The notes: generated by a model from the letters alone, not told the origin. A DNA stretch of 57,649 nucleotides from Nostocales cyanobacterium (GCA_004292695.1 RDXV01000010.1:1-57649), one strand, 5' to 3'; positions 15,976-41,587 are shown, numbered from the stretch's first letter. A program made the numbers and translations.

Positions 15976-16422
<447 letters not shown>

Positions 16423-16709
16423 TAAGGGGGGTTGTTTAGGGTTTTTGTTGGTGCAATTGTTTGAGGAATTTTGTTTTTTTGTTCCCTATTTTTGCCCTGG
16501 GATTTTTTGGGAAAATGGGGTTTTTGTTTGGGTTTTATGTCTTGGTTTTACCCTATTTTTTACCTTGTGTCAAGGGGGATACATGATTTTTGATAAATGG
16601 GTTACTGATTTTTTGAAACAGTTCTAACAGTTGAATGCAAATACCTATCATAATTTCAGCTAATAGCTACCACAACATTGATGGGTATTTAAGCAGATAT
16701 GATATCACT

Positions 16710-17663
16710 CTACTTTTTTGGGAATGTCCTATAAGTTAAGTCCCAATTTCCATTTGACATTGTGATAAAGTCTTCTCGACAGTTGCGATTGGAAAACTGA
16801 CGCAAAATTTCACCACTGATATATTGAGTATTCATCAAAAATTTACCAAGATCCAAGCGTGAAAATTTTTGAGCTTCATACCGACTTTTAACATAGTCTG
16901 GTAATTGCTGAACTACGAATAGTAGAGTTTCTCTATTGAGATTAGGTAAATAATCAGCAGTTTTATTCACCAAATTTTTAAGATTATGCCCGTAGTCCTC
17001 CTTTTTATTTTTATCTTTTTCATTTTTAGGTTTTTTATTTGCCAAAGTTTCTTCATCAACACCTTTAGCCATTAGAGAACCTTTCAAAAGTAACTCAGTT
17101 GAAAGACAACAGTTTTGAATTACGGCGTATTTATTGAATGAGCCTAGAAGTATTGCCGCTGCTGCTTCAAGGTGCTGTTTTGCTAGATACCACCATTCCA
17201 CTGTTTTATTTGGCAGGTTTCCCATTTTTTCAACATCATCGAGTCCATACGCAAAATCCATCAGATCGATAACCTGGTCGAAGAATTTTAAGCCAGTCTG
17301 TTGATCATTAAACAGCCATTGTTTTTGTATATCAGGTACGTCTATTAGAAAATCTACTGGATTAATTGCTGGTGAGCCATAAATAAGTGGTATACGTAGA
17401 GGAAAAAAGACATCTCGAAATATGAATGCTCCGATATGTATAGGTGGCATTACCAAATCTGTTAAACGATATAGTTCTTTGTATATCTGATTTACGGCAT
17501 TGAATAGCGGATCATGCTCAAGTATAACACTGCTACCAGGATTCAACCGCTGTGCAATTATTAAGTAAGTGGCTTGTGGACGTTGAAATGGTTCTATCCC
17601 TTTTTGAATAAGCTCGTCATCTACTTCGATTACAAGTTTCATCAAATCAATTTCTTCTGTCAC
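16710..17663 (-). CDS. hypothetical protein (cargo of nifH element)
   Basis: 317-aa ORF with no confident family assignment; divergent from the 17833 ORF. Confidence 0.45.
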   Translation of the reverse strand: MTEEIDLMKLVIEVDDELIQKGIEPFQRPQATYLIIAQRLNPGSSVILEHDPLFNAVNQIYKELYRLTDLVMPPIHIGAFIFRDVFFPLRIPLIYGSPAINPVDFLIDVPDIQKQWLFNDQQTGLKFFDQVIDLMDFAYGLDDVEKMGNLPNKTVEWWYLAKQHLEAAAAILLGSFNKYAVIQNCCLSTELLLKGSLMAKGVDEETLANKKPKNEKDKNKKEDYGHNLKNLVNKTADYLPNLNRETLLFVVQQLPDYVKSRYEAQKFSRLDLGKFLMNTQYISGEILRQFSNRNCREDFITMSNGNWDLTYRTFPKK

Positions 17664-17832
17664 TTCTGCACTCCGAGCAAAAATTTACACTACACAGTAT
17701 AATTGTATATGATGTTGCAAGCAAGTGTTTTCTTACAGTTGCTTCGGGAAATTTGATTGCATGGGTGGTTTTTTGTCTATCCTATTTGTCAAATTAAACT
17801 TTTCACTAAAGTAAACATGAGGATCTTCTATT

Positions 17833-18501
17833 ATGTCACTTTTAAAGCTACTACAAACATTCATTTCTGGTACTCATAATCCTGAATTGGATGCGGCACG
17901 AATAAAGCATGATAGCTTGCCTAAAACTGAATATGGTAAGGGTGAGAGACTTTCAAAAGATGAATTAGATAAGGATAAACAGATAACTTTCCAGAGAGGT
18001 TATGAGTTGGGGCAGATTTTGAGTGCAGCTATAAAAGAACACTACTCTCCTCCAGAACAACAGCGAGTTATTGATAGTCTGATGAGAGCGATGATATACC
18101 TTGGTAATAAAGCCAGGATATTTCCTGATATGGATTATGAGAATATCTGGTACACAGATTACTACGACCTAATTGAATTAGCCAAAGATATGGGTTTAGG
18201 GGATGATACTTTACCTCACTGGCCTGAAGAGTCAAATCGCTTCAATCGCTATCTAGAGCTAACCACCTCTGATCTGGTTCAAATATTTCTTGGTTTTTTT
18301 GAGGAGGCTTTGCTTGATGAGTATAAATTTGGGGCAGATTTGGATAGGTGGGTGAAGTATTTATTAAGGGAAACTTTGAAGTCTAGACAGAGGTTAGCCC
18401 GTGAACGACAAAAGCACGATGAAGCTTTCCGTTTTTCTCCTCAAATTTTAAAGACAACTGAGCAGAATAAAAGCGATAACAGTCATATATTTGAACGTTA
18501 A
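17833..18501 (+). CDS. hypothetical protein (cargo of nifH element)
   Basis: 222-aa ORF; divergent partner of 16710..17663. Confidence 0.45.
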   Translation: MSLLKLLQTFISGTHNPELDAARIKHDSLPKTEYGKGERLSKDELDKDKQITFQRGYELGQILSAAIKEHYSPPEQQRVIDSLMRAMIYLGNKARIFPDMDYENIWYTDYYDLIELAKDMGLGDDTLPHWPEESNRFNRYLELTTSDLVQIFLGFFEEALLDEYKFGADLDRWVKYLLRETLKSRQRLARERQKHDEAFRFSPQILKTTEQNKSDNSHIFER

Positions 18502-18506
18502 AAGGT

Positions 18507-18640
18507 TTTCTGGTATGTGGGTTATGGGTGCGATCACATTTCCGATGTTGTGGTTTTAGTGCGATCGCTTTTCTGGTGTGTGGGTTGTGATGTGCGATCG
18601 CTTTTCTGATGTTGTGGTGTAGGTGCGATCGCAGCACTAT
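18507..18640. repeat. ~31-33-bp imperfect tandem repeat x4, each unit starting with HIP1 GCGATCGC
   Basis: gcgatcgcttttctg(g/a)tgt(g)tgg... repeated. Confidence 0.8.
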
Positions 18641-19122
18641 TCACCAACTAATTTAAGTGCTGACTCTAACACTTGTGTACTAACTCTAAAACCAACCTCT
18701 GGAAGTTGTTCAAAAATTGGCCTAGCAGCTTTTAGCTTACCCTCTTGTTTAGCAAGTAAAATAACACCTAAAGTTCCCCGTACAGGAATTTCTAAAGCAA
18801 CTGCGGCTATTTTGGCAGCACGATCATCTATAATTGCTTCATATCCAGGATTTTTATATACGCAGCTAAGAACATGACTTTCACCTAAACCAAGATCCCA
18901 TGCAGCAATTGATATATCAATCTGATCCACGTCTCGAATATAGATAGATCCTTGATTATTTATCCAAATTTTTGCCGGATCATTATCAGGTGCAATACAT
19001 ATTTCTTGAACAACACCACTGGGAATAATCAATTCATTACAAAGTTCTTGCAGTAGATGGACTTGATTAATTTTAGTTAATACAATTAATGGTGAACTAT
19101 TTACCACCCATTTTCTATTCAC
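18637..19122 (-). CDS. DUF3368-family PIN-like protein (putative toxin)
   Basis: 161 aa; overlaps the upstream UPF0175 ORF by 8 nt, the canonical UPF0175/DUF3368 pair. Confidence 0.6.
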   Translation of the reverse strand: MNRKWVVNSSPLIVLTKINQVHLLQELCNELIIPSGVVQEICIAPDNDPAKIWINNQGSIYIRDVDQIDISIAAWDLGLGESHVLSCVYKNPGYEAIIDDRAAKIAAVALEIPVRGTLGVILLAKQEGKLKAARPIFEQLPEVGFRVSTQVLESALKLVGE

Positions 19123-19390
19123 GCGCTAACTCCTCAGCTAATTCTTCAGGAGTAACCTGAAAAGGTGAAACATGATAACGGTGAAGTGCTTCTAAAAATT
19201 GATGACGACTAACACCAGCAATTTCAGACGCTTTAGATTGGGAAATCATACCAACTTCATACCATTTTACAGCAGCAGCTAAACGCATTTCTTGAACAAA
19301 ATTTTCTGGGTTACTGCGAAGGGCAGAAAAAACATCATTGGGAAGTTCAACATTGATGTTTATAGTCATAGCGTTAAATTTATTGAACAT
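19115..19390 (-). CDS. UPF0175-family antitoxin
   Basis: 91 aa with a C-terminal HTH-like segment; paired with DUF3368. Confidence 0.6.
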   Translation of the reverse strand: MFNKFNAMTININVELPNDVFSALRSNPENFVQEMRLAAAVKWYEVGMISQSKASEIAGVSRHQFLEALHRYHVSPFQVTPEELAEELARE

Positions 19391-19552
19391 TTTTATGATG
19401 TTAACATAAACTCAGTCAATTTGATTTAAAATAGCAATATTGTTTCAAATTTTGATAAACTCAAAGTTCAATGTAAGTGATTTAATGTTATAATTGCTAA
19501 AAAGTATCTATTTCTGAGCATTATTAATTAAAACATCAGTAAGGAGAAAAAG

Positions 19553-19810
19553 ATGCAAATTGTAGTTAAACCCGATCAAGGAAAATACATTCTTGAAAAA
19601 CTACAAGAAGGTAAGTATAAAAATGTTGATGAGTTATTATCTGTAGCTTTTAAACTTTTAGAACAACATGATGAAAAAGAAAAGCAACTTAGTGAATTAA
19701 GACGAAAAATTGCTGAAGGAACAAAACAACTTCGGCAAGGTGAAGTAATTGAAGGTGAATTAGTTTTTCAACAATTACGAGAAAAGTTAAATTCTGTGGA
19801 GTTAATATAA
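19553..19810 (+). CDS. ParD-like (RHH) antitoxin, orphan
   Basis: 85 aa with a GKYKNVDELLSVAFKLLEQHDEK...LRRKIAEG pattern like ParD. Confidence 0.5.
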   Translation: MQIVVKPDQGKYILEKLQEGKYKNVDELLSVAFKLLEQHDEKEKQLSELRRKIAEGTKQLRQGEVIEGELVFQQLREKLNSVELI

Positions 19811-20034
19811 TGCAGAACTCAATATCTAATCACTTCACTATTGAAATTGAACAAGAAGAAGATGGACGTTGGATAGCAGAAATTTTAGAAATACCTGGTG
19901 TTTTAGCTTATGGTTCAACTCAACAACAAGCAATATCTAACGTGCAAGCTTTAGCTTTGCGAGTAATTGCTGATAAACTGGAACATGGGGAAATGAACTT
20001 AGGATTAACAAGTCTCACCTTTATTGCTGCGTAG
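19810..20034 (+). CDS. HicB-like (UPF0150) antitoxin, orphan
   Basis: 74 aa; IEIEQEEDGRWIAEILEIPGVLAYGSTQQQAISNV matches the HicB N-domain; the start overlaps the ParD-like stop (TAATG). Confidence 0.5.
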   Translation: MQNSISNHFTIEIEQEEDGRWIAEILEIPGVLAYGSTQQQAISNVQALALRVIADKLEHGEMNLGLTSLTFIAA

Positions 20035-20153
20035 AGGGCGGGAATATGAGTCAATTTGCATCTCTCATTGAAGTTATAGGTGTTTTAATTGAAAACTATG
20101 AAAATCAACATATTCCTGAATTGTAATTAATTATTTATTAATTAATTAACTAA

Positions 20154-20759
20154 CTATCCTCCATTTTGTACCATCCAAACCAACATCCCTAAAATTTCAT
20201 CTACAGGAGGTAAAGGATAATCAGCTAAATCAATAGTCACAATATCACCCTCTAACTTTAAAAATCGCCATTGTGTACCGCTACTAATTGCACCATAAAC
20301 AACACTAAGAGGATTATGTTTAGCAATATTAAATCTCTGTGCGGCTACCATCTCTGCAATACACTGTCCAAACCCAGTTCTTAAATCTGCTTTTTTTGCT
20401 TCAACAATTACAATTACAGGTGCTTCAATTTCTAAAACTTCAGAAGAACGACTTAACAAAAAATCACATATTCCATTTAGCCCCACTGATTCATCAACAG
20501 TAAAATCTTCACCAGAAAATAAACTAATTTGCCGATTTAAAATTCTTCTTACTTCTAACAAAACCGGATAAATAATCCCTTCAGAACGTGCTTTTTCACT
20601 AGCAGAAGCAGCAAGAGGTAAACTTTCTGCTAAATATGCTGTTAAAGTCGTAGATGGTTCAATTTTGGCAACTTCAGGAATAAAACGTCCACCTTCCTGA
20701 GTTTTTAAACCAAAAGCTTCTTTAACCTTACTTATAGATGTAAATTGACTATAAGACAT
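20154..20759 (-). CDS. PD-(D/E)XK-like nuclease-fold hypothetical protein
   Basis: CDFLL...EIEAPVIVIVEAKK pattern (D...E-x-K). Confidence 0.4.
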   Translation of the reverse strand: MSYSQFTSISKVKEAFGLKTQEGGRFIPEVAKIEPSTTLTAYLAESLPLAASASEKARSEGIIYPVLLEVRRILNRQISLFSGEDFTVDESVGLNGICDFLLSRSSEVLEIEAPVIVIVEAKKADLRTGFGQCIAEMVAAQRFNIAKHNPLSVVYGAISSGTQWRFLKLEGDIVTIDLADYPLPPVDEILGMLVWMVQNGG

Positions 20760-20865
20760 AAATCTATAAAATTTGATTCTTTAAAATTGTTATTTTATAT
20801 AATTATACAATATTTTAAAAAAAATTAATGGCTTTCCTAAGATATAAGATATGGTATAAAATACT

Positions 20866-21564
20866 ATGAAAACAAAATTACTATTACCACATTTATCTAT
20901 CATGACTGAAAATCGCTCCACCGTTCAAAATCTAGCTCAACAATACATCGAAGCAGATCAACCGACAGCATGGTTTGAAGTGCTTTACTCCCAAGCTAAT
21001 AACGATGAAAAACTGATTCCTTGGGCAGATATGAAACCTAATCATAACCTAGTACAATGGTTAGATGATCATAAAATTCAAACTCCAGGAAAAACAGCAT
21101 TAGTCATTGGTTGTGGTTTGGGAGATGACGCAGAAGAATTATCAAAACGTGGTTTTAATGTCACAGCTTTTGATATTTCTCCCTCAGCAATAGAATGGTG
21201 TAAACAGAGATTTCCTGATTCTTCAGTTAATTATCAAGTAGCTGATTTATTAAATCCTCCTAGTGAATGGAAGCAAAATTTTGATTTTATTTTAGAATCC
21301 TATACTTTGCAATCATTACCCCCATCATTAAGTAACCAAGCTATTGATATAATAGCAAAATTTCTATCTGCTCAAGGAACATTATTAATTATTTGCAGAG
21401 GTAGAAACCCAGAAGATAAACTAGATAAAGTCCCTTATCCGCTCACTAAAAATGATGTTATGAAATTTGTAGATATAGGTTTATCATTAGTTGATTTTGA
21501 GGACTATTTTGATCACCTAGATTCACAACCAACTAGGAGATTTAGAATTACTTTCACAAAATAA
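20866..21564 (+). CDS. class I SAM-dependent methyltransferase
   Basis: VIGCGLGDDAEEL glycine-rich motif I followed by an acidic motif II. Confidence 0.7.
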   Translation: MKTKLLLPHLSIMTENRSTVQNLAQQYIEADQPTAWFEVLYSQANNDEKLIPWADMKPNHNLVQWLDDHKIQTPGKTALVIGCGLGDDAEELSKRGFNVTAFDISPSAIEWCKQRFPDSSVNYQVADLLNPPSEWKQNFDFILESYTLQSLPPSLSNQAIDIIAKFLSAQGTLLIICRGRNPEDKLDKVPYPLTKNDVMKFVDIGLSLVDFEDYFDHLDSQPTRRFRITFTK

Positions 21565-21613
21565 GTTAACTAATTTTGCTTAGTTTTGTTGGGTTTCCTA
21601 TTGTCAACCCAAC

Positions 21614-23035
21614 CTACAAACTTATTAAACTTTTATTTACTATCTGTAATCTCAATCTTTCATTCTCAATTCTTAACCTCTCATTTTCCTGTTCTAACGT
21701 CATTACCATTTCTTGCAATTCTTCAACCTTAGATTTTTTCTTAATTGCTTCCTCAATTGCAACCTTGCGATTTTCTAAACTAAACCACTTTTGATAAATC
21801 GAAGTGTGCATATTCACAGAATGACCTAAATTATCAGCAGCAGCTTTAATCGGAATCCCCATTAAATGCGCTCGAATTGCCCAAGCATGACGTAAATCAT
21901 AAGGTTGAAAATTCACACCCACAAATCTAAACCATCTATCTGTACCATGTCGCGCTGCATTAATTTCTTTACTGGTTATTTTATCTTGAATTTTCATTTT
22001 TAATAACTCAATTGCTTCTAAATCTGCCTTTAAATTAAACTCTTCCACCCAACGGGGATATAATGGTAAAGCGTCCCTTCCTCCAGTTTTACATTCTTCA
22101 TTAACTCGCCATGTATTCATGGTATTTTCTGATGATAACCACCAATCTAAATCCGGTTTTACAAATATTTCAATCGGTCTTAAACCATAGGTAGCTAACA
22201 TTCCATAAACCCATCTCCACAATTTCCAATTATTTCTATCATCTCTAGTTATCAACTTACTCGGACGGTTAATGGCGTAATTTTCAAACTTAAAATATTC
22301 TTTTTCGATTTCTGTATCAGTGGGTATATCCCGTTTACGTTTTGCAGTAGTTTTAATTTTTAAATTACTTAATTCAGGAACTTCTAAACCAGAACATTTA
22401 CACAAAACCCGAATTACTTTAATTAACTCATTTTTTACACTATCGGAAGATTGGCAATTTTGCACAGCTTCAATAAAATTAGCATTGATTGCTAATTTAT
22501 CCTTGGGTAAATGTTTTTGGGCAATATAAAAATAACTACTAAAAGTATTTTCACTTTTTAAAGTACGTTTCCGAGTTTGAAAATAATTTTTCTCAAAATC
22601 TGCAACTAAATCACCAATGGTTTTTAAACTAGCTTTAATCCGAGTTTTTCCTAAATATTTATCAGTCCATTGAAATTGTTTTCTAGCAATTAACTTTCCT
22701 AACTCATAAGATTCTTCTTCCGCAGTATTTAAACCATCAAAATTAAAAGGAATACCCAAGGAAATATCATATTGTTTTGTACCGCTACCGTTTTTATCAA
22801 TATCTCCTGGTTTAATAGGTAAAGTGCATCTCAACTGTAAGGAATTTCCAGATTTGCGGATATAAACACCAACATTTGCCGCCTTTAATCTAACATTAAT
22901 TGCTTTTAATTCTGTGGTTAATTTTGCTGTTAGATGATTTTCTTGTTCATTTACTGCTTGCATTCTACCTAAATATCCCCCATCGGTAATAGCTGTTTGG
23001 TGAAAATCGGCAAATGCTTCCTGTGTTCTGTCCAT
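21614..23035 (-). CDS. xisA: XisA-family site-specific tyrosine recombinase (nifH element)
   Basis: 473 aa (XisA is ~472 aa) with a C-terminal RHAWAIRAHLMGIPIKAAADNLGHS...HTSIYQKW catalytic R-H-R-Y region; paralogous to ORFs 36789..38090 and 40199..41587. Confidence 0.85.
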   Translation of the reverse strand: MDRTQEAFADFHQTAITDGGYLGRMQAVNEQENHLTAKLTTELKAINVRLKAANVGVYIRKSGNSLQLRCTLPIKPGDIDKNGSGTKQYDISLGIPFNFDGLNTAEEESYELGKLIARKQFQWTDKYLGKTRIKASLKTIGDLVADFEKNYFQTRKRTLKSENTFSSYFYIAQKHLPKDKLAINANFIEAVQNCQSSDSVKNELIKVIRVLCKCSGLEVPELSNLKIKTTAKRKRDIPTDTEIEKEYFKFENYAINRPSKLITRDDRNNWKLWRWVYGMLATYGLRPIEIFVKPDLDWWLSSENTMNTWRVNEECKTGGRDALPLYPRWVEEFNLKADLEAIELLKMKIQDKITSKEINAARHGTDRWFRFVGVNFQPYDLRHAWAIRAHLMGIPIKAAADNLGHSVNMHTSIYQKWFSLENRKVAIEEAIKKKSKVEELQEMVMTLEQENERLRIENERLRLQIVNKSLISL

Positions 23036-23106
23036 ACCCTAGATTTACCCTAATAAAAAAACTGTTCACTCCAGACAATGATTACCGCAAACATAGTCTA
23101 AAATGA

Positions 23107-23607
<501 letters not shown>

Positions 23608-36788: not shown

Positions 36789-38090
36789 CTAAAAACTACC
36801 TTTATAAACCATTTCCATTTTTAACTTTTCTAACTCCATCTTCAACCTTTCATTCTCCAATTTTAAAACCAAATTCTCATCTTTAATCACCTCAACCTCA
36901 TTCCGTTTACTCAAAGCCTGATTTATTGCCAACTTCCGCATATCCAAAGAAAACCAACGTTGATAAGTTTTCGTGTGAATCTGTACACTATGACCTAAAT
37001 TATCTGCTGCTGCTTTAATCGGAATCCCTAAAATGTGCGCTCTAATTGCCCAACCATGACGCAAATCATAGGGTTTAAAATCTAAGCCAATTTTTCTAAA
37101 CCACCAGCTAACTCTTTGAATTAAAGCTGTAATTTCTGCATGATTATTTTTATCTTTTTTATTAATTGCTTCTACCAACATTTCTAAATACTGGGGATTT
37201 CTTAAATCAAATTCCTCAATCCATTCTTTATATAAAGGTAATGCTTCCCTTTCTCCCGTTTTACAATCTTTATCAACCTTCCATGTTAAATCTAAATTTT
37301 CCTTACTTAACCACCAATTAACATCAGGATTGATAAATAATTCACGGGGACGTAAACCGAAAACTGCTAACATTCCATACACCCAACGCCACAGTAACCA
37401 GCTATCTTTTACCTCATAATTAACTTGTTTACCTCGATTATTTTCGTATTCCTCAAATTTATAAAAACCTGCTACTATTTCTTTATCTGTAGGAACATTT
37501 CTAGAGTTAGTTTCCGGTGTTTTAGCATAGTTAGTTAAGTTAATTTCAATCTTGAAAAGTTGACAAAATACAGAAATAGCTCTTACAGCATTATATCTTG
37601 CCCATTCTTTATCTATTTTCTCGATTGCATGAATAAAATTGTCCCCAATTGCTAAATCATCAGCTTTGGTATAACGTTTAATTCTGGTATAATAATAAAA
37701 GAAAGTATGCTCACTTTTTGTTGTGCGTTTATGGGTTTTAAAATATTCAATTTCAAACTTTTCTAATAATTTCCCAATAGTTGCTACATCGTTTTTTATC
37801 TCTTCCTTCCCTAAATATTTCTCATTCCAAACAAAGGTTTTCCTAGCAATTAATTTTCCTAATTCATAAGCTTCTTCCTCTGCGGTTTTTAAACCCTCCA
37901 AATTAGCAGGAATGTTTAAACTGATGTTGTATTGTTTTTTACCTAATTTTTTTATATCTGCATCACCCGGTTTAATAGGTAAAGTTGCCCTTAATTGCAG
38001 ACATCCATTTGATTCTCGAATTGTTACCCTCGTCTTTGCAGACTTCAAACGCAGATTTACCTGTTGTATTTGTGTTAAGTTAGTTTTCAT
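36789..38090 (-). CDS. xisA: XisA-family site-specific tyrosine recombinase (nifD element)
   Basis: 433 aa; shares LQLRATLPIKPGD...YNISLNIPAN...TAEEEAYELGKLIARK and a C-terminal RHGWAIRAHILGIPIKAAADNLGHSVQIHTKTYQRWF with the other two XisA-like ORFs. Confidence 0.85.
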   Translation of the reverse strand: MKTNLTQIQQVNLRLKSAKTRVTIRESNGCLQLRATLPIKPGDADIKKLGKKQYNISLNIPANLEGLKTAEEEAYELGKLIARKTFVWNEKYLGKEEIKNDVATIGKLLEKFEIEYFKTHKRTTKSEHTFFYYYTRIKRYTKADDLAIGDNFIHAIEKIDKEWARYNAVRAISVFCQLFKIEINLTNYAKTPETNSRNVPTDKEIVAGFYKFEEYENNRGKQVNYEVKDSWLLWRWVYGMLAVFGLRPRELFINPDVNWWLSKENLDLTWKVDKDCKTGEREALPLYKEWIEEFDLRNPQYLEMLVEAINKKDKNNHAEITALIQRVSWWFRKIGLDFKPYDLRHGWAIRAHILGIPIKAAADNLGHSVQIHTKTYQRWFSLDMRKLAINQALSKRNEVEVIKDENLVLKLENERLKMELEKLKMEMVYKGSF

Positions 38091-40205: not shown

Positions 40206-41587
40206 TTTAACACTTCTGCTATTTGATGCTTCGCTAACAATTCTTTTAGTTTTTCATTTTCTGCCTTCAATTTTACTATTTCCTCTTTTAGTTCATTTAA
40301 TTCATCTTTTTTTTCTACCGCTTGTTTAATAGCTTTTTTTCGGTTTTCTAAACCAAACCATCTTTGATAAGTGTCTGTATGTTGTTGTACAGAATGACCA
40401 AGATTATCTGCTGCTGCTTTAATTGGCACTCCCATTAAATGCGCTCTAATTGCCCAAGCGTGACGTAAATCATAAGGTGAAAAACCTAAATCAACTTTCT
40501 GAAACCAGTCAGATAAAGCAGCACTTAACGTGTGCATACTTTTTGTATCATCACGTCCATTGATATAATTTTTCACCAATTTAACAATTTCAGGATTTTT
40601 CAGATCAAATAAATCTATCCATGAGTCATATAATGGTAATGCTTCTCTATCACCAGTTTTACACAATTCATGAACTTTCCAAGTTCTATTTTCAGACAAC
40701 CAATGATTAAAGTCAGGATATAAAAAAAGCTCTCTAGGACGACAACCATAAGCGGCTAACATTCCATAAAACCATCTAAAAACTAACCAGTAATCTGCTT
40801 GTTCTTGTCTTTTGTTACGTCTATTAATTGCGTATATTTCCCATTTATAAAAACCTGTCTCAATGGTGGATTCATCAGGAACTTTACGAGCTTTAGGTTT
40901 AGGACGTTTAAATTTTAAAATTAAAGGAATATTAAATTCTTTACAGAATAAATTTAGAGCTATACAAGTGCGATGTTTCCAACTAGGAGTATTATTAGAT
41001 AAAGAATCAAATTGTTTTTTAATATTTTCTGGAGTTGCTAACATATCCCGATCAAATTGATTTAACACACCGAGATAATTTTTAAAAAATGTCCCTTCAG
41101 ACTTAATATTTCTTTGCCTAGAGCTAAAATATATATGTTCATAATTATCTAATAATTCACCAAAGGTTTTCTCTGTTTTGTCCTGCTTATTACCTAAATA
41201 CTTCTGATTCCATTGAAACTGCTGTCTAGCAATTAATTTTCCTAATTCATTCGCTTCTTCTTCCGCAGTTTTTAAACCATAAAAATTAGCAGGTATTCCT
41301 AAAGAGATTTTATATTGTTTTTTGCCGTTTCCCTTAGTATCAATATCGTTAGGTTTGAGAGGTAATGTTGCTTGCAGATATAAACTACCAGCTACTTTCA
41401 CTATAGAGACTCGTGACTTAGCTGCTTTTAACCGTGAATTAACTTCTTTGAGTGCAACATCAAATTGAAGGTCAGTATGAGCAGCTTGTTTTTCCAAATG
41501 TTTCATAGTTCCCATGTATGTACCGTCTGTAGTGGCAGTTTTGACGGTAGATGCTTGATAACCCTTGTGTAGCTTGGTTTTTGGCAT
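40199..41587 (-). CDS. xisA: XisA-family site-specific tyrosine recombinase (nifK element)
   Basis: 462 aa with a C-terminal RHAWAIRAHLMGVPIKAAADNLGHSVQQHTDTYQRWF. Confidence 0.85.
   Translation of the reverse strand: MPKTKLHKGYQASTVKTATTDGTYMGTMKHLEKQAAHTDLQFDVALKEVNSRLKAAKSRVSIVKVAGSLYLQATLPLKPNDIDTKGNGKKQYKISLGIPANFYGLKTAEEEANELGKLIARQQFQWNQKYLGNKQDKTEKTFGELLDNYEHIYFSSRQRNIKSEGTFFKNYLGVLNQFDRDMLATPENIKKQFDSLSNNTPSWKHRTCIALNLFCKEFNIPLILKFKRPKPKARKVPDESTIETGFYKWEIYAINRRNKRQEQADYWLVFRWFYGMLAAYGCRPRELFLYPDFNHWLSENRTWKVHELCKTGDREALPLYDSWIDLFDLKNPEIVKLVKNYINGRDDTKSMHTLSAALSDWFQKVDLGFSPYDLRHAWAIRAHLMGVPIKAAADNLGHSVQQHTDTYQRWFGLENRKKAIKQAVEKKDELNELKEEIVKLKAENEKLKELLAKHQIAEVLKN

What the first reader, a model, noticed from the sequence alone, without database searches (positions are those of the whole stretch)
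16710..18501. Divergent pair of uncharacterised genes as cargo of the nifH element
ORFs 16710..17663 (-, 317 aa) and 17833..18501 (+, 222 aa) face away from each other across 170 bp. They have no confident family match and sit in an element otherwise filled with toxin-antitoxin parts, a PD-(D/E)XK protein and a methyltransferase. The 317-aa protein has an alpha-helical region (WWYLAKQHLEAAAAILLGSFNKYAVIQNCCLSTELLLKG...YGHNLKNL) that looks faintly like HEPN/Abi-type domains. The pair is a candidate novel defence or addiction module riding on a developmentally excised element.
Basis: inference. Interest (0 to 1): 0.6.

Follow-up and report, generated by a model that had tools for sequence, protein, structure and literature searches.

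The report
Solitary HEPN gene beside orphan gene
Two real but uncharacterised genes sit back-to-back on a known DNA element that interrupts the nitrogenase gene nifH: one is a probable RNA-cutting "HEPN" protein from a large undescribed family, the other a cyanobacteria-only protein with no recognisable fold, and they look like independent passengers rather than a matched toxin/defence pair.

The parts
16710..17663 (-). Gene A: 317-aa two-domain protein (uncharacterised N-terminal domain + HEPN-T-like C-terminal domain)
   Evidence: ORF; 137 close homologues; 461 representative clusters in the exhaustive profile search; AlphaFold2 model pLDDT 87.6, pTM 0.84; dN/dS 0.22-0.30
17211..17663 (-). 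A, N-terminal region (aa 1-151): helices 7-20, 25-40, 52-64, beta-hairpin 76-91, long helix 121-147; conserved R28, G78, D133, D136; no match to any Pfam family
   Evidence: secondary structure of the model; conservation across 70 divergent members; Pfam scan of 70 members finds only HEPN, in 17 of 70
16764..17210 (-). A, HEPN domain (aa ~152-300). Proposed active-site residues: E190 (17094-17096), K194 (17082-17084), H226 (16986-16988), R261-Y262 (16878-16883). Lineage-specific Lys-rich loop at aa 208-223
17664..17832 (.). 169-bp divergent spacer with candidate promoters and both ribosome-binding sites; more conserved than synonymous sites
   Evidence: 89-92% identity to L002/L057/L032 versus 74-85% at third codon positions; promoter-like TTTACA-18-TATGAT at 17684-17713; not unusually structured (z -0.85 and -0.27); no Rfam hit; no NtcA site
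17833..18501 (+). Gene B: 222-aa protein of a family seen only in cyanobacteria wherever a source names the organism, with no detectable fold or family relatives; invariant FPD..YxDxYD..LPHW..E.N..RYLE core and a basic C-terminal helix
16650..18552 (.). 1.9-kb A-spacer-B cassette shared with the metagenome loci L032/L033, which are not in nifH
   Evidence: blastn: window 16650-18552 = L032 8862-10719, 84% identity, with no homology beyond
16413..16422 (+). Left copy of the direct repeat CCGTGAAGGT (element/nifH junction)
   Evidence: matches the CCGTGAAG repeat at nifH position 429 in Hilton et al. 2016, supplementary Table B
23145..23154 (+). Right copy of the direct repeat CCGTGAAGGT
21614..23035 (-). 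XisA-like tyrosine recombinase at the far end of the element (context, not part of the cassette)
   Evidence: Pfam Phage_integrase, weak; the orthologue in Anabaena sp. 90 carries XisAC_N/XisAC_2nd

Best explanation
The finding consists of two unrelated, individually selected genes. They became linked recently as a 1.9-kb divergent cassette in the Anabaena/Dolichospermum/Sphaerospermopsis lineage, and here they ride as cargo on the known nifH-429 XisA-type excision element. They are not an obligate two-component system. Gene A belongs to a large, undescribed family of ~300-aa proteins found in cyanobacteria, Proteobacteria and a Chlamydiae MAG. The family fuses an N-terminal alpha/beta domain that matched no Pfam model to a HEPN-T (PF05168-like) domain. 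It keeps the acidic residue of helix 2 (E190, with K194), the 'alternative' histidine in the helix-2/3 insert (H226) and the motif arginine (R261-Y262), but it lacks the canonical Rx4-6H histidine. Inferred mechanism: like other HEPN proteins, A dimerises and acts as a metal-independent endoribonuclease, or at minimum as an RNA/nucleotide-binding effector. Its activity would be gated in cis by its own N-terminal domain, which would explain why it needs no fixed partner gene. It would then serve as a stand-alone stress, abortive-infection or addiction toxin on mobile and variable DNA. Gene B encodes a protein with no detectable fold relatives whose function cannot be assigned. In Pleurocapsales it is a stably placed chromosomal gene, so it is probably not a dedicated defence or antitoxin component. 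Shown: gene reality, element boundaries, HEPN fold, conserved residues, lack of co-occurrence, reciprocal decay. Inferred: RNase activity, dimerisation, cis-regulation, any defence or addiction role.
Against: No biochemical evidence exists for this family. The window protein itself scores below Pfam's HEPN cut-off (13.6 vs 22 bits). Human sacsin HEPN, one of the two best structural matches, lacks the conserved Rx4-6H motif and may act as a non-catalytic RNA-binding domain, so catalysis is not guaranteed. In AbiV the residues shown to be essential were assigned to an Rx4-6H-like segment (R91/H97), not clearly to the 'alternative' His. I could not inspect model coordinates to confirm that E190, H226 and R261 cluster. 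The cassette does move as a unit, its spacer is more conserved than synonymous sites, and A decays more often than B. These points fit a toxin(A)/antitoxin(B) history and keep functional coupling alive. I could not check whether genomes with solitary A carry B elsewhere.
Confidence: 0.6

Rival explanations
1. A and B form a functional two-gene toxin-antitoxin or anti-phage module. A would be the HEPN toxin or effector and B its antitoxin or sensor, co-regulated from the shared divergent promoter region and helping to stabilise the nifH element.
For: A discrete 1.9-kb cassette is present at two unrelated genomic sites: in nifH elements (window, L002, L057-59) and at a chromosomal site without nifH or xisA (L032/L033). 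The spacer is 89-92% identical, above third-codon-position identity. The decay pattern A-dead/B-intact in L002, L033 and L034 is what toxin loss would look like. The surrounding element is full of TA genes.
Against: Outside this lineage each family is solitary. In the genome scan, A has no B within 10 kb in 22 of 23 loci. B has no A in Microcystis, Cylindrospermopsis, Pleurocapsa, Crocosphaera or the ~50%-identity metagenome loci. Intact A with all conserved residues persists without B in the nifH elements L001 and L013. The genes are divergent, not an operon. There is no PADLOC or TA-family match. In Pleurocapsales B is syntenic with housekeeping genes.
Confidence: 0.17
2. A's HEPN domain is non-catalytic. 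It would be a nucleotide- or RNA-binding regulatory protein, as proposed for human sacsin HEPN and for HEPN domains fused to nucleotidyltransferases, with no toxin or defence role. Both genes would be neutral passengers of the element.
For: The canonical Rx4-6H histidine is absent. A top structural match is human sacsin HEPN, which lacks the conserved motif and may be a non-catalytic RNA-binding domain. A is repeatedly lost without visible consequence. There are no phage or PADLOC links.
Against: The family keeps a constellation of polar residues (E190, K194, H226, R261, Y262, Q280, R288) down to ~20% identity. Anantharaman 2013 take such conservation as a sign of retained activity through an alternative site, and reserve 'inactive' for domains lacking conserved polar residues. 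Frequent placement next to integrases, TA pairs and methylases and on plasmids is typical of conflict genes.
Confidence: 0.25
3. B is a DNA-binding regulator that controls the divergent promoter region, and thereby A and/or itself, in the manner of a classic divergent regulator-target pair.
Confidence: 0.08

Closest known systems
HEPN-T / PF05168 HEPN domains of the TT1696 (1ufb) and AF0298 (2hsb) type
   Different: A carries an additional ~150-aa N-terminal domain that matched no Pfam model and is fixed across the family. It is about 2.5 times the size of the stand-alone HEPN-T proteins. It usually has no MNT partner (2 MNT-type ORFs among the neighbours of 22 loci). The window protein is below Pfam's cut-off.
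AbiV (Lactococcus abortive-infection HEPN RNase, type III TA-like)
   Same: A HEPN protein whose closest structural relatives are the same set (2HSB, 1UFB, 3O10). It is grouped with AF0298-type HEPN-T for the alternative His. It has a flexible Lys-rich segment next to the catalytic region, as does A's Lys-rich loop at 208-223 in this lineage. It is a single-protein effector.
HEPN-MNT type II/VII toxin-antitoxin pairs (e.g. SO_3166/SO_3165, 5yep; 7ae2)
   Different: B is not a nucleotidyltransferase. The canonical Rx4H motif is absent. The MNT partner is missing in ~90% of loci.
nifH-429 interruption element of heterocystous cyanobacteria (Hilton et al. 2016, PMC4874684)
   Same: Same insertion point and direct repeat (CCGTGAAG at nifH ~429). 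Same tyrosine (XisA-like) recombinase at the element's end on the opposite strand. Similar size: 5.7-7.8 kb reported and 6.7 kb here. Anabaena sp. 90 element #3 contains the orthologous A (ANA_C13502) and B.
   Different: Nothing differs structurally, so the window's element is another member. The cargo genes A and B were not characterised there; the passages I read of the shared-cargo table (groups found in five or more elements) did not list them.

Membership tests
HEPN superfamily, HEPN-T (PF05168-like) clade (gene A) | Four-helix up-down HEPN bundle | tested here: met
HEPN superfamily, HEPN-T (PF05168-like) clade (gene A) | Sequence match to Pfam PF05168 above the gathering score | tested here: inconclusive
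   The window protein scores 13.6 bits against a cut-off of 22 (E=0.075). 17 of 70 divergent family members match at E<=0.01, best 1.8e-7. The family profile aligns to TT1696 over the full domain at E=0.1.
HEPN superfamily, HEPN-T (PF05168-like) clade (gene A) | AF0298-type site: acidic residue in helix 2, conserved His from the helix-2/3 insert, basic residue at the motif position | tested here: met
   E190 and H226 are invariant and R261 is conserved at >=90% across 70 members. The definition is from Anantharaman 2013. They pair with the TT1696 residues. Spatial clustering was not verified because I had no access to coordinates.
HEPN superfamily (canonical RNase families) | Rx4-6H motif | tested here: not met
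   There is no His 4-6 residues after R261 in any of the 30 or 70 aligned members (SRYEAxxFSR). This motif is typically absent in the AF0298-type HEPN-T and AbiV families.
HEPN superfamily (canonical RNase families) | Metal-independent endoribonuclease activity | not testable with these tools
   Requires purified protein. Inferred only by analogy with AbiV.
HEPN-MNT toxin-antitoxin system | Adjacent minimal nucleotidyltransferase partner | tested here: not met
   B has no NTase signature. MNT/Polbeta-type hits occur in only 2 of the 54 neighbour ORFs taken from 22 A loci; the one I traced is in L018.
Two-gene TA or defence module made of A+B | Partners co-occur across the phylogenetic range of both families | tested here: not met
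   B lies beside A in 1 of 23 genome loci. Intact A lies beside B in 1 of 25 metagenome loci, with 1 pseudogene and 2 remnants besides. B is solitary in Microcystis, Cylindrospermopsis, Pleurocapsa and Crocosphaera.
Two-gene TA or defence module made of A+B | No stable orphan toxin: loss of one partner is not tolerated in both directions | tested here: not met
   A intact without B: L001 and L013. B intact with A dead: L002 (stop at codon 122), L033 (two stops) and L034 (832-bp deletion).
Two-gene TA or defence module made of A+B | Match to a known defence or TA profile | tested here: not met
   PADLOC gives nothing for A, B or 70 A relatives beyond two single-member hits (AbiLii E=0.0032, PDC-M60A E=0.0084). 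NCBIfam gave no match; PHROGs gave one non-significant hit for A (phrog_3943, E=0.43) and none for B.
AbiV-type (type III TA-like) system | Adjacent inhibitory RNA | tested here: inconclusive
   No Rfam hit in 16300-23300. Spacer folding is not better than shuffles. A's upstream region is replaced in L001/L013. A novel RNA cannot be excluded.
nifH-429 XisA-type interruption element | Direct repeat CCGTGAAG at nifH ~429 bracketing the element, with excision restoring nifH | tested here: met
   CCGTGAAGGT at 16413-16422 and 23145-23154. The in-silico joint gives an intact 296-aa NifH. Same repeat and position as in Hilton 2016 Table B.
nifH-429 XisA-type interruption element | Tyrosine recombinase of the XisA/XisC type at the element's end | tested here: met
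   473-aa ORF at 21614-23035(-) with a weak Phage_integrase hit. It is 86-91% identical to orthologues carrying XisAC_N/XisAC_2nd.
nifH-429 XisA-type interruption element | Developmentally regulated excision in heterocysts | not testable with these tools
   Needs heterocyst DNA or PCR across the junction.

The most novel reading that the evidence does not exclude
Family A is an unrecognised, widespread single-protein conflict system. A HEPN-T RNase would be held in check by its own N-terminal sensor domain and released by phage infection or by loss or excision of its carrier DNA. In the bloom-forming Anabaena/Dolichospermum lineage it would have recruited the orphan-fold protein B as a lineage-specific modulator. 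The cassette, together with the element's other TA pairs, would then act as an addiction device that keeps the nifH-interrupting element from being lost from vegetative cells.
Probability: 0.15. Interest if true: 0.6.

Novelty: new variant of a known kind. Interest (0 to 1): 0.35.

Why it matters
The element is already catalogued, and HEPN proteins are a well-known class, so the headline "novel defence pair" does not hold up. Two modest points remain. First, gene A stands for a sizeable family (about 460 clusters at 50% identity, in cyanobacteria, Proteobacteria, a Chlamydiae MAG and plasmids). It has a fixed architecture of an unmatched N-terminal domain plus a HEPN-T domain, and no Pfam, NCBIfam or PADLOC model covers it. 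It is a reasonable candidate for a new single-gene toxin or abortive-infection effector. It is also a natural test case for whether the "alternative histidine" HEPN site proposed in 2013 is catalytic. Second, gene B is a tightly conserved protein, cyanobacterial wherever the organism is named and present throughout Microcystis, with many invariant acidic, aromatic and histidine residues and no detectable fold relative. Why excision elements in nif genes persist, and whether their TA-rich cargo stabilises them, is still open, and this cassette offers a small experimental handle on that question.

Tried and rejected
- Sequence searches of A (full length, HEPN half alone, 30-sequence profile) and of B against PDB sequences found nothing useful. 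Only the broad 70-sequence profile reached TT1696.
- The UniRef name "Phycobilisome protein" for one B relative has no Pfam support and was rejected as an automatic label.
- B near a type III-B Cmr operon in Cylindrospermopsis is seen in one species only and not elsewhere, so I did not treat it as an association.
- RNA-antitoxin idea (AbiV analogy): no Rfam hit, the spacer is not structured, and there is no tandem array upstream of A.
- NtcA-site search in the spacer found none, and the window-wide count equals chance.
- Phage origin: no tblastn hit for A or B in 50,697 phage records, and no BFVD structural match for B.
- A relationship between A and B themselves: hhalign probability 0.3%.
- The afdb50 fold library was unavailable, so B and A's N-terminal domain were not compared with AlphaFold DB.
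- My first dN/dS value for A against L002 was an artefact of an in-frame stop that the aligner dropped. I discarded it.

Full report
**Observation.**
They are separated by 169 bp. Both are genuine genes. Each has well over a hundred homologues. Codon-level comparison with orthologues gives dN/dS of 0.22-0.30 for A and 0.17-0.21 for B. Shine-Dalgarno-like GGAG and GAGGA motifs precede the starts. Homologues conserve the first seven residues of A, so the GTG start is preferable to the shorter 310-aa NCBI model.

**Setting.**
nifS, nifU and the N-terminal 145 codons of nifH lie upstream, and the C-terminal part of nifH resumes at 23191. A 10-bp direct repeat, CCGTGAAGGT, sits at 16413-16422 and 23145-23154. 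Removing the 6,732 bp between the copies yields an uninterrupted 296-aa NifH reading ...[16 protein letters not shown]....

The far end of the element carries a 473-aa XisA-like tyrosine recombinase. This is the element variant listed by Hilton et al. 2016 (PMC4874684, Table B): nifH interrupted at position 429, repeat CCGTGAAG, tyrosine recombinase at the end, 5.7-7.8 kb, in Anabaena sp. 90, A. cylindrica PCC 7122 and A. circinalis AWQC310F. The carrier element is therefore already known.

The other cargo here is a DUF3368/UPF0175 pair, a ParD-like plus HicB/UPF0150-like pair, an unassigned 201-aa protein and a SAM methyltransferase.

**Gene A.**
At sequence level only a sub-threshold Pfam HEPN hit appears (E=0.075, 13.6 bits against a cut-off of 22). 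PADLOC and NCBIfam gave nothing, and PHROGs only a non-significant hit (E=0.43).

- *Family size.* An exhaustive profile search finds 461 representative clusters (50% identity level) at E<=1e-3 and 300 at <=1e-10. Almost all are 280-320 aa and match end to end. The genome scan shows members in Caulobacter, Bradyrhizobium, a Xanthobacteraceae MAG and a Chlamydiae MAG as well as many cyanobacteria, and three are on proteobacterial plasmids.
- *Conserved residues.* Across 70 members down to ~20% identity the invariant residues are R28, E190, K194, H226 and Y262. G78, G96, D133, D136, P255, R261, Q280 and R288 are conserved at >=90%. The broad profile aligns over the whole HEPN domain of TT1696. 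It pairs E190/K194 with AAEAALKG, H226 with WGHSI and R261-Y262 with TRY. 17 of the 70 members reach Pfam HEPN at E<=0.01, and no other family recurs.
- *Active-site type.* No member has a histidine 4-6 residues after R261, so the canonical Rx4-6H motif is absent. Anantharaman et al. 2013 (PMC3710099) describe this situation for the AF0298-type HEPN-T family and for AbiV. The motif H is missing, the basic residue is retained, a strongly conserved H comes from the insert between helices 2 and 3, and an acidic residue sits in helix 2. They propose that this forms an alternative RNase active site. In A, E190 lies in helix 178-199, H226 lies in the 200-227 insert, and R261 lies just before the last long helix.
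- *Experimental precedent.* AbiV has since been shown to be an EDTA-insensitive rRNase, and its nearest structures are 2HSB, 1UFB and 3O10 (bioRxiv 10.1101/2024.05.05.592566).
- *N-terminal region.* The first ~150 residues (three helices, a beta-hairpin with the conserved FRD motif, and a long helix with D133/D136) match nothing in Pfam. They are present in essentially every family member.

I therefore file A as a HEPN-superfamily protein of the HEPN-T type, in a new fixed architecture. RNase activity is inferred, not shown.

**Gene B.**
The family is compact. It has 174 hits with the single sequence and 198 with a profile, all cyanobacterial wherever a source names the organism, and none carries a Pfam domain. 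It is strongly conserved, with an invariant core FPD..Y.D.YD..LPHW..E.N..RYLE and a basic C-terminal helix.

**Are A and B a module?**
I fetched 23 genome loci encoding A relatives with 10-kb flanks. B is next to A in only one of them, L002 (Anabaena sp. FACHB-1237), which is also a nifH element. Two further nifH elements carry A but no B: L001 (Sphaerospermopsis) and L013 (Anabaenopsis). No neighbour of A recurs. The most frequent Pfam families among 54 flanking ORFs are a DNA methylase (3) and an MNT-type nucleotidyltransferase (2).

Starting from B, the contexts are these:
- In Microcystis, B is solitary between PemK and HicAB pairs.
- In Cylindrospermopsis it lies at the end of a Cmr operon.
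- In Crocosphaera it is beside a BrnT-like pair and PFOR.
- In Pleurocapsa PCC 7319 it lies between a PRC-barrel gene and pdxJ.
- In five ~50%-identity metagenome loci it is convergent with a rhodanese/TrhO-like gene followed by panB. That is a stable housekeeping neighbourhood.

Among the 25 metagenome B loci, four carry A sequence beside B:
- L032 has A intact beside B, with no nifH or xisA within 10 kb.
- L033 is the same arrangement, but A carries two in-frame stops.
- L034 and L040 are nifH elements in which an 832-bp deletion (window 16665-17496) leaves only ~60 codons of A.
- B is intact in L034 and frameshifted in L040.

In L002, A has an in-frame stop at codon 122. Anabaena sp. 90 (A = ANA_C13502) and two Dolichospermum assemblies have both genes intact.

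The homology between the window and L032 runs exactly from 16650 to 18552. That is A, the spacer and B with ~50-60 bp on each side. The spacer is 89-92% identical among these loci, higher than third-codon-position identity of 74-85%.

So in this one lineage the two genes form a mobile 1.9-kb cassette with a constrained regulatory spacer. The linkage is recent and lineage-specific. Either gene is dispensable for keeping the other. A retains all its conserved residues where B is deleted (P0004). I put the probability of real functional coupling at about 0.15-0.2.

**Mechanism proposed.**
A most likely acts as a dimeric, metal-independent HEPN RNase, or at least as an RNA-binding effector, using E190/H226/R261. 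Its universally attached N-terminal domain would act as the regulatory or sensor module. That would explain why no partner gene is conserved.

Its genomic company fits a conflict or addiction role: TA pairs, methylases, integrase, resolvase, an excisionase-like HTH, IS elements and plasmids. I have no evidence of phage involvement. A non-catalytic, sacsin-like role remains a serious alternative. B's function is unknown. The only leads are the basic C-terminal helix and the conserved divergent spacer, which weakly suggest nucleic-acid binding.

**Checks that came back negative.**
- There is no Rfam family anywhere in the element.
- The spacer is not unusually structured on either strand.
- There is no NtcA consensus site in the spacer.
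- A and B are unrelated to each other.

**Verdict.**
The "novel two-gene defence/addiction module" is mostly not supported. What remains is a new architectural variant of a known domain class (A), belonging to a sizeable unannotated family, together with an orphan-fold cyanobacterial protein (B). Both ride on a previously described nifH excision element. Interest is moderate to low (0.35).

Noticed in passing
window 18506-18632: A tandem array (31 nt x 4, or 64 nt x 2) lies immediately after B's stop and abuts the stop of the convergent DUF3368 gene. Three of the four units end in the cyanobacterial HIP1 palindrome GCGATCGC and the first in a one-base variant (GCGATCAC), so the array holds 3 of the window's 14 HIP1 sites. 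The unit occurs nowhere else in the window. It is retained in L001 (9717-9835), where B itself is deleted.
   Followed up: partly
window 36798-38075 (-) and 40244-41542 (-): Two further XisA-like recombinase paralogues (47-50% identical to the nifH-element XisA). This implies at least two more excision elements in this nif region.
   Followed up: no
L057-L059 (Anabaena sp. 90 CP003284 and two Dolichospermum assemblies); L034: In these genomes nifH is interrupted twice. Besides the 429-type element, the N-terminal part breaks again near codon 47, next to a serine recombinase. In Anabaena sp. 90 this corresponds to the ~80-kb element #1 at nifH position 143 in Hilton 2016.
   Followed up: partly
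window 17643-17663: The NCBI gene model for A (EAZ76_00970, 310 aa) starts at Met8. Conservation of residues 1-7 in homologues and a GGAG motif 8 nt upstream support the GTG start at 17663.
   Followed up: yes
window 17833-18501; L024-L031: The nifH-element B protein is ~74% identical to the Microcystis protein but only ~48% identical to that of Cylindrospermopsis, a fellow member of the Nostocales. This suggests horizontal transfer between co-occurring bloom formers rather than vertical descent.
   Followed up: no
L029-L031 (Cylindrospermopsis raciborskii): The B homologue lies convergently at the 3' end of a type III-B (Cmr) CRISPR-Cas operon, next to a tyrosine integrase in one contig. This is seen in one species only.
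   Followed up: no
L018 9493-9879 (Caulobacter sp. ErkDOM-E): A distant A-family member (31% identity) has a divergently oriented 129-aa MNT-type nucleotidyltransferase neighbour. This may be a relic of the ancestral HEPN-MNT pairing.
   Followed up: partly
window 16995-17042 (A residues 208-223): A Lys/Asp/Asn-rich 15-residue loop (NKKPKNEKDKNKKED) lies just before the invariant His226. It is present only in the window and in the Anabaena sp. 90 lineage and has low model confidence.
   Followed up: no
It is 85-90% conserved in the other nifH-429 elements L002, L034 and L057-59. I did not examine it further.
   Followed up: no
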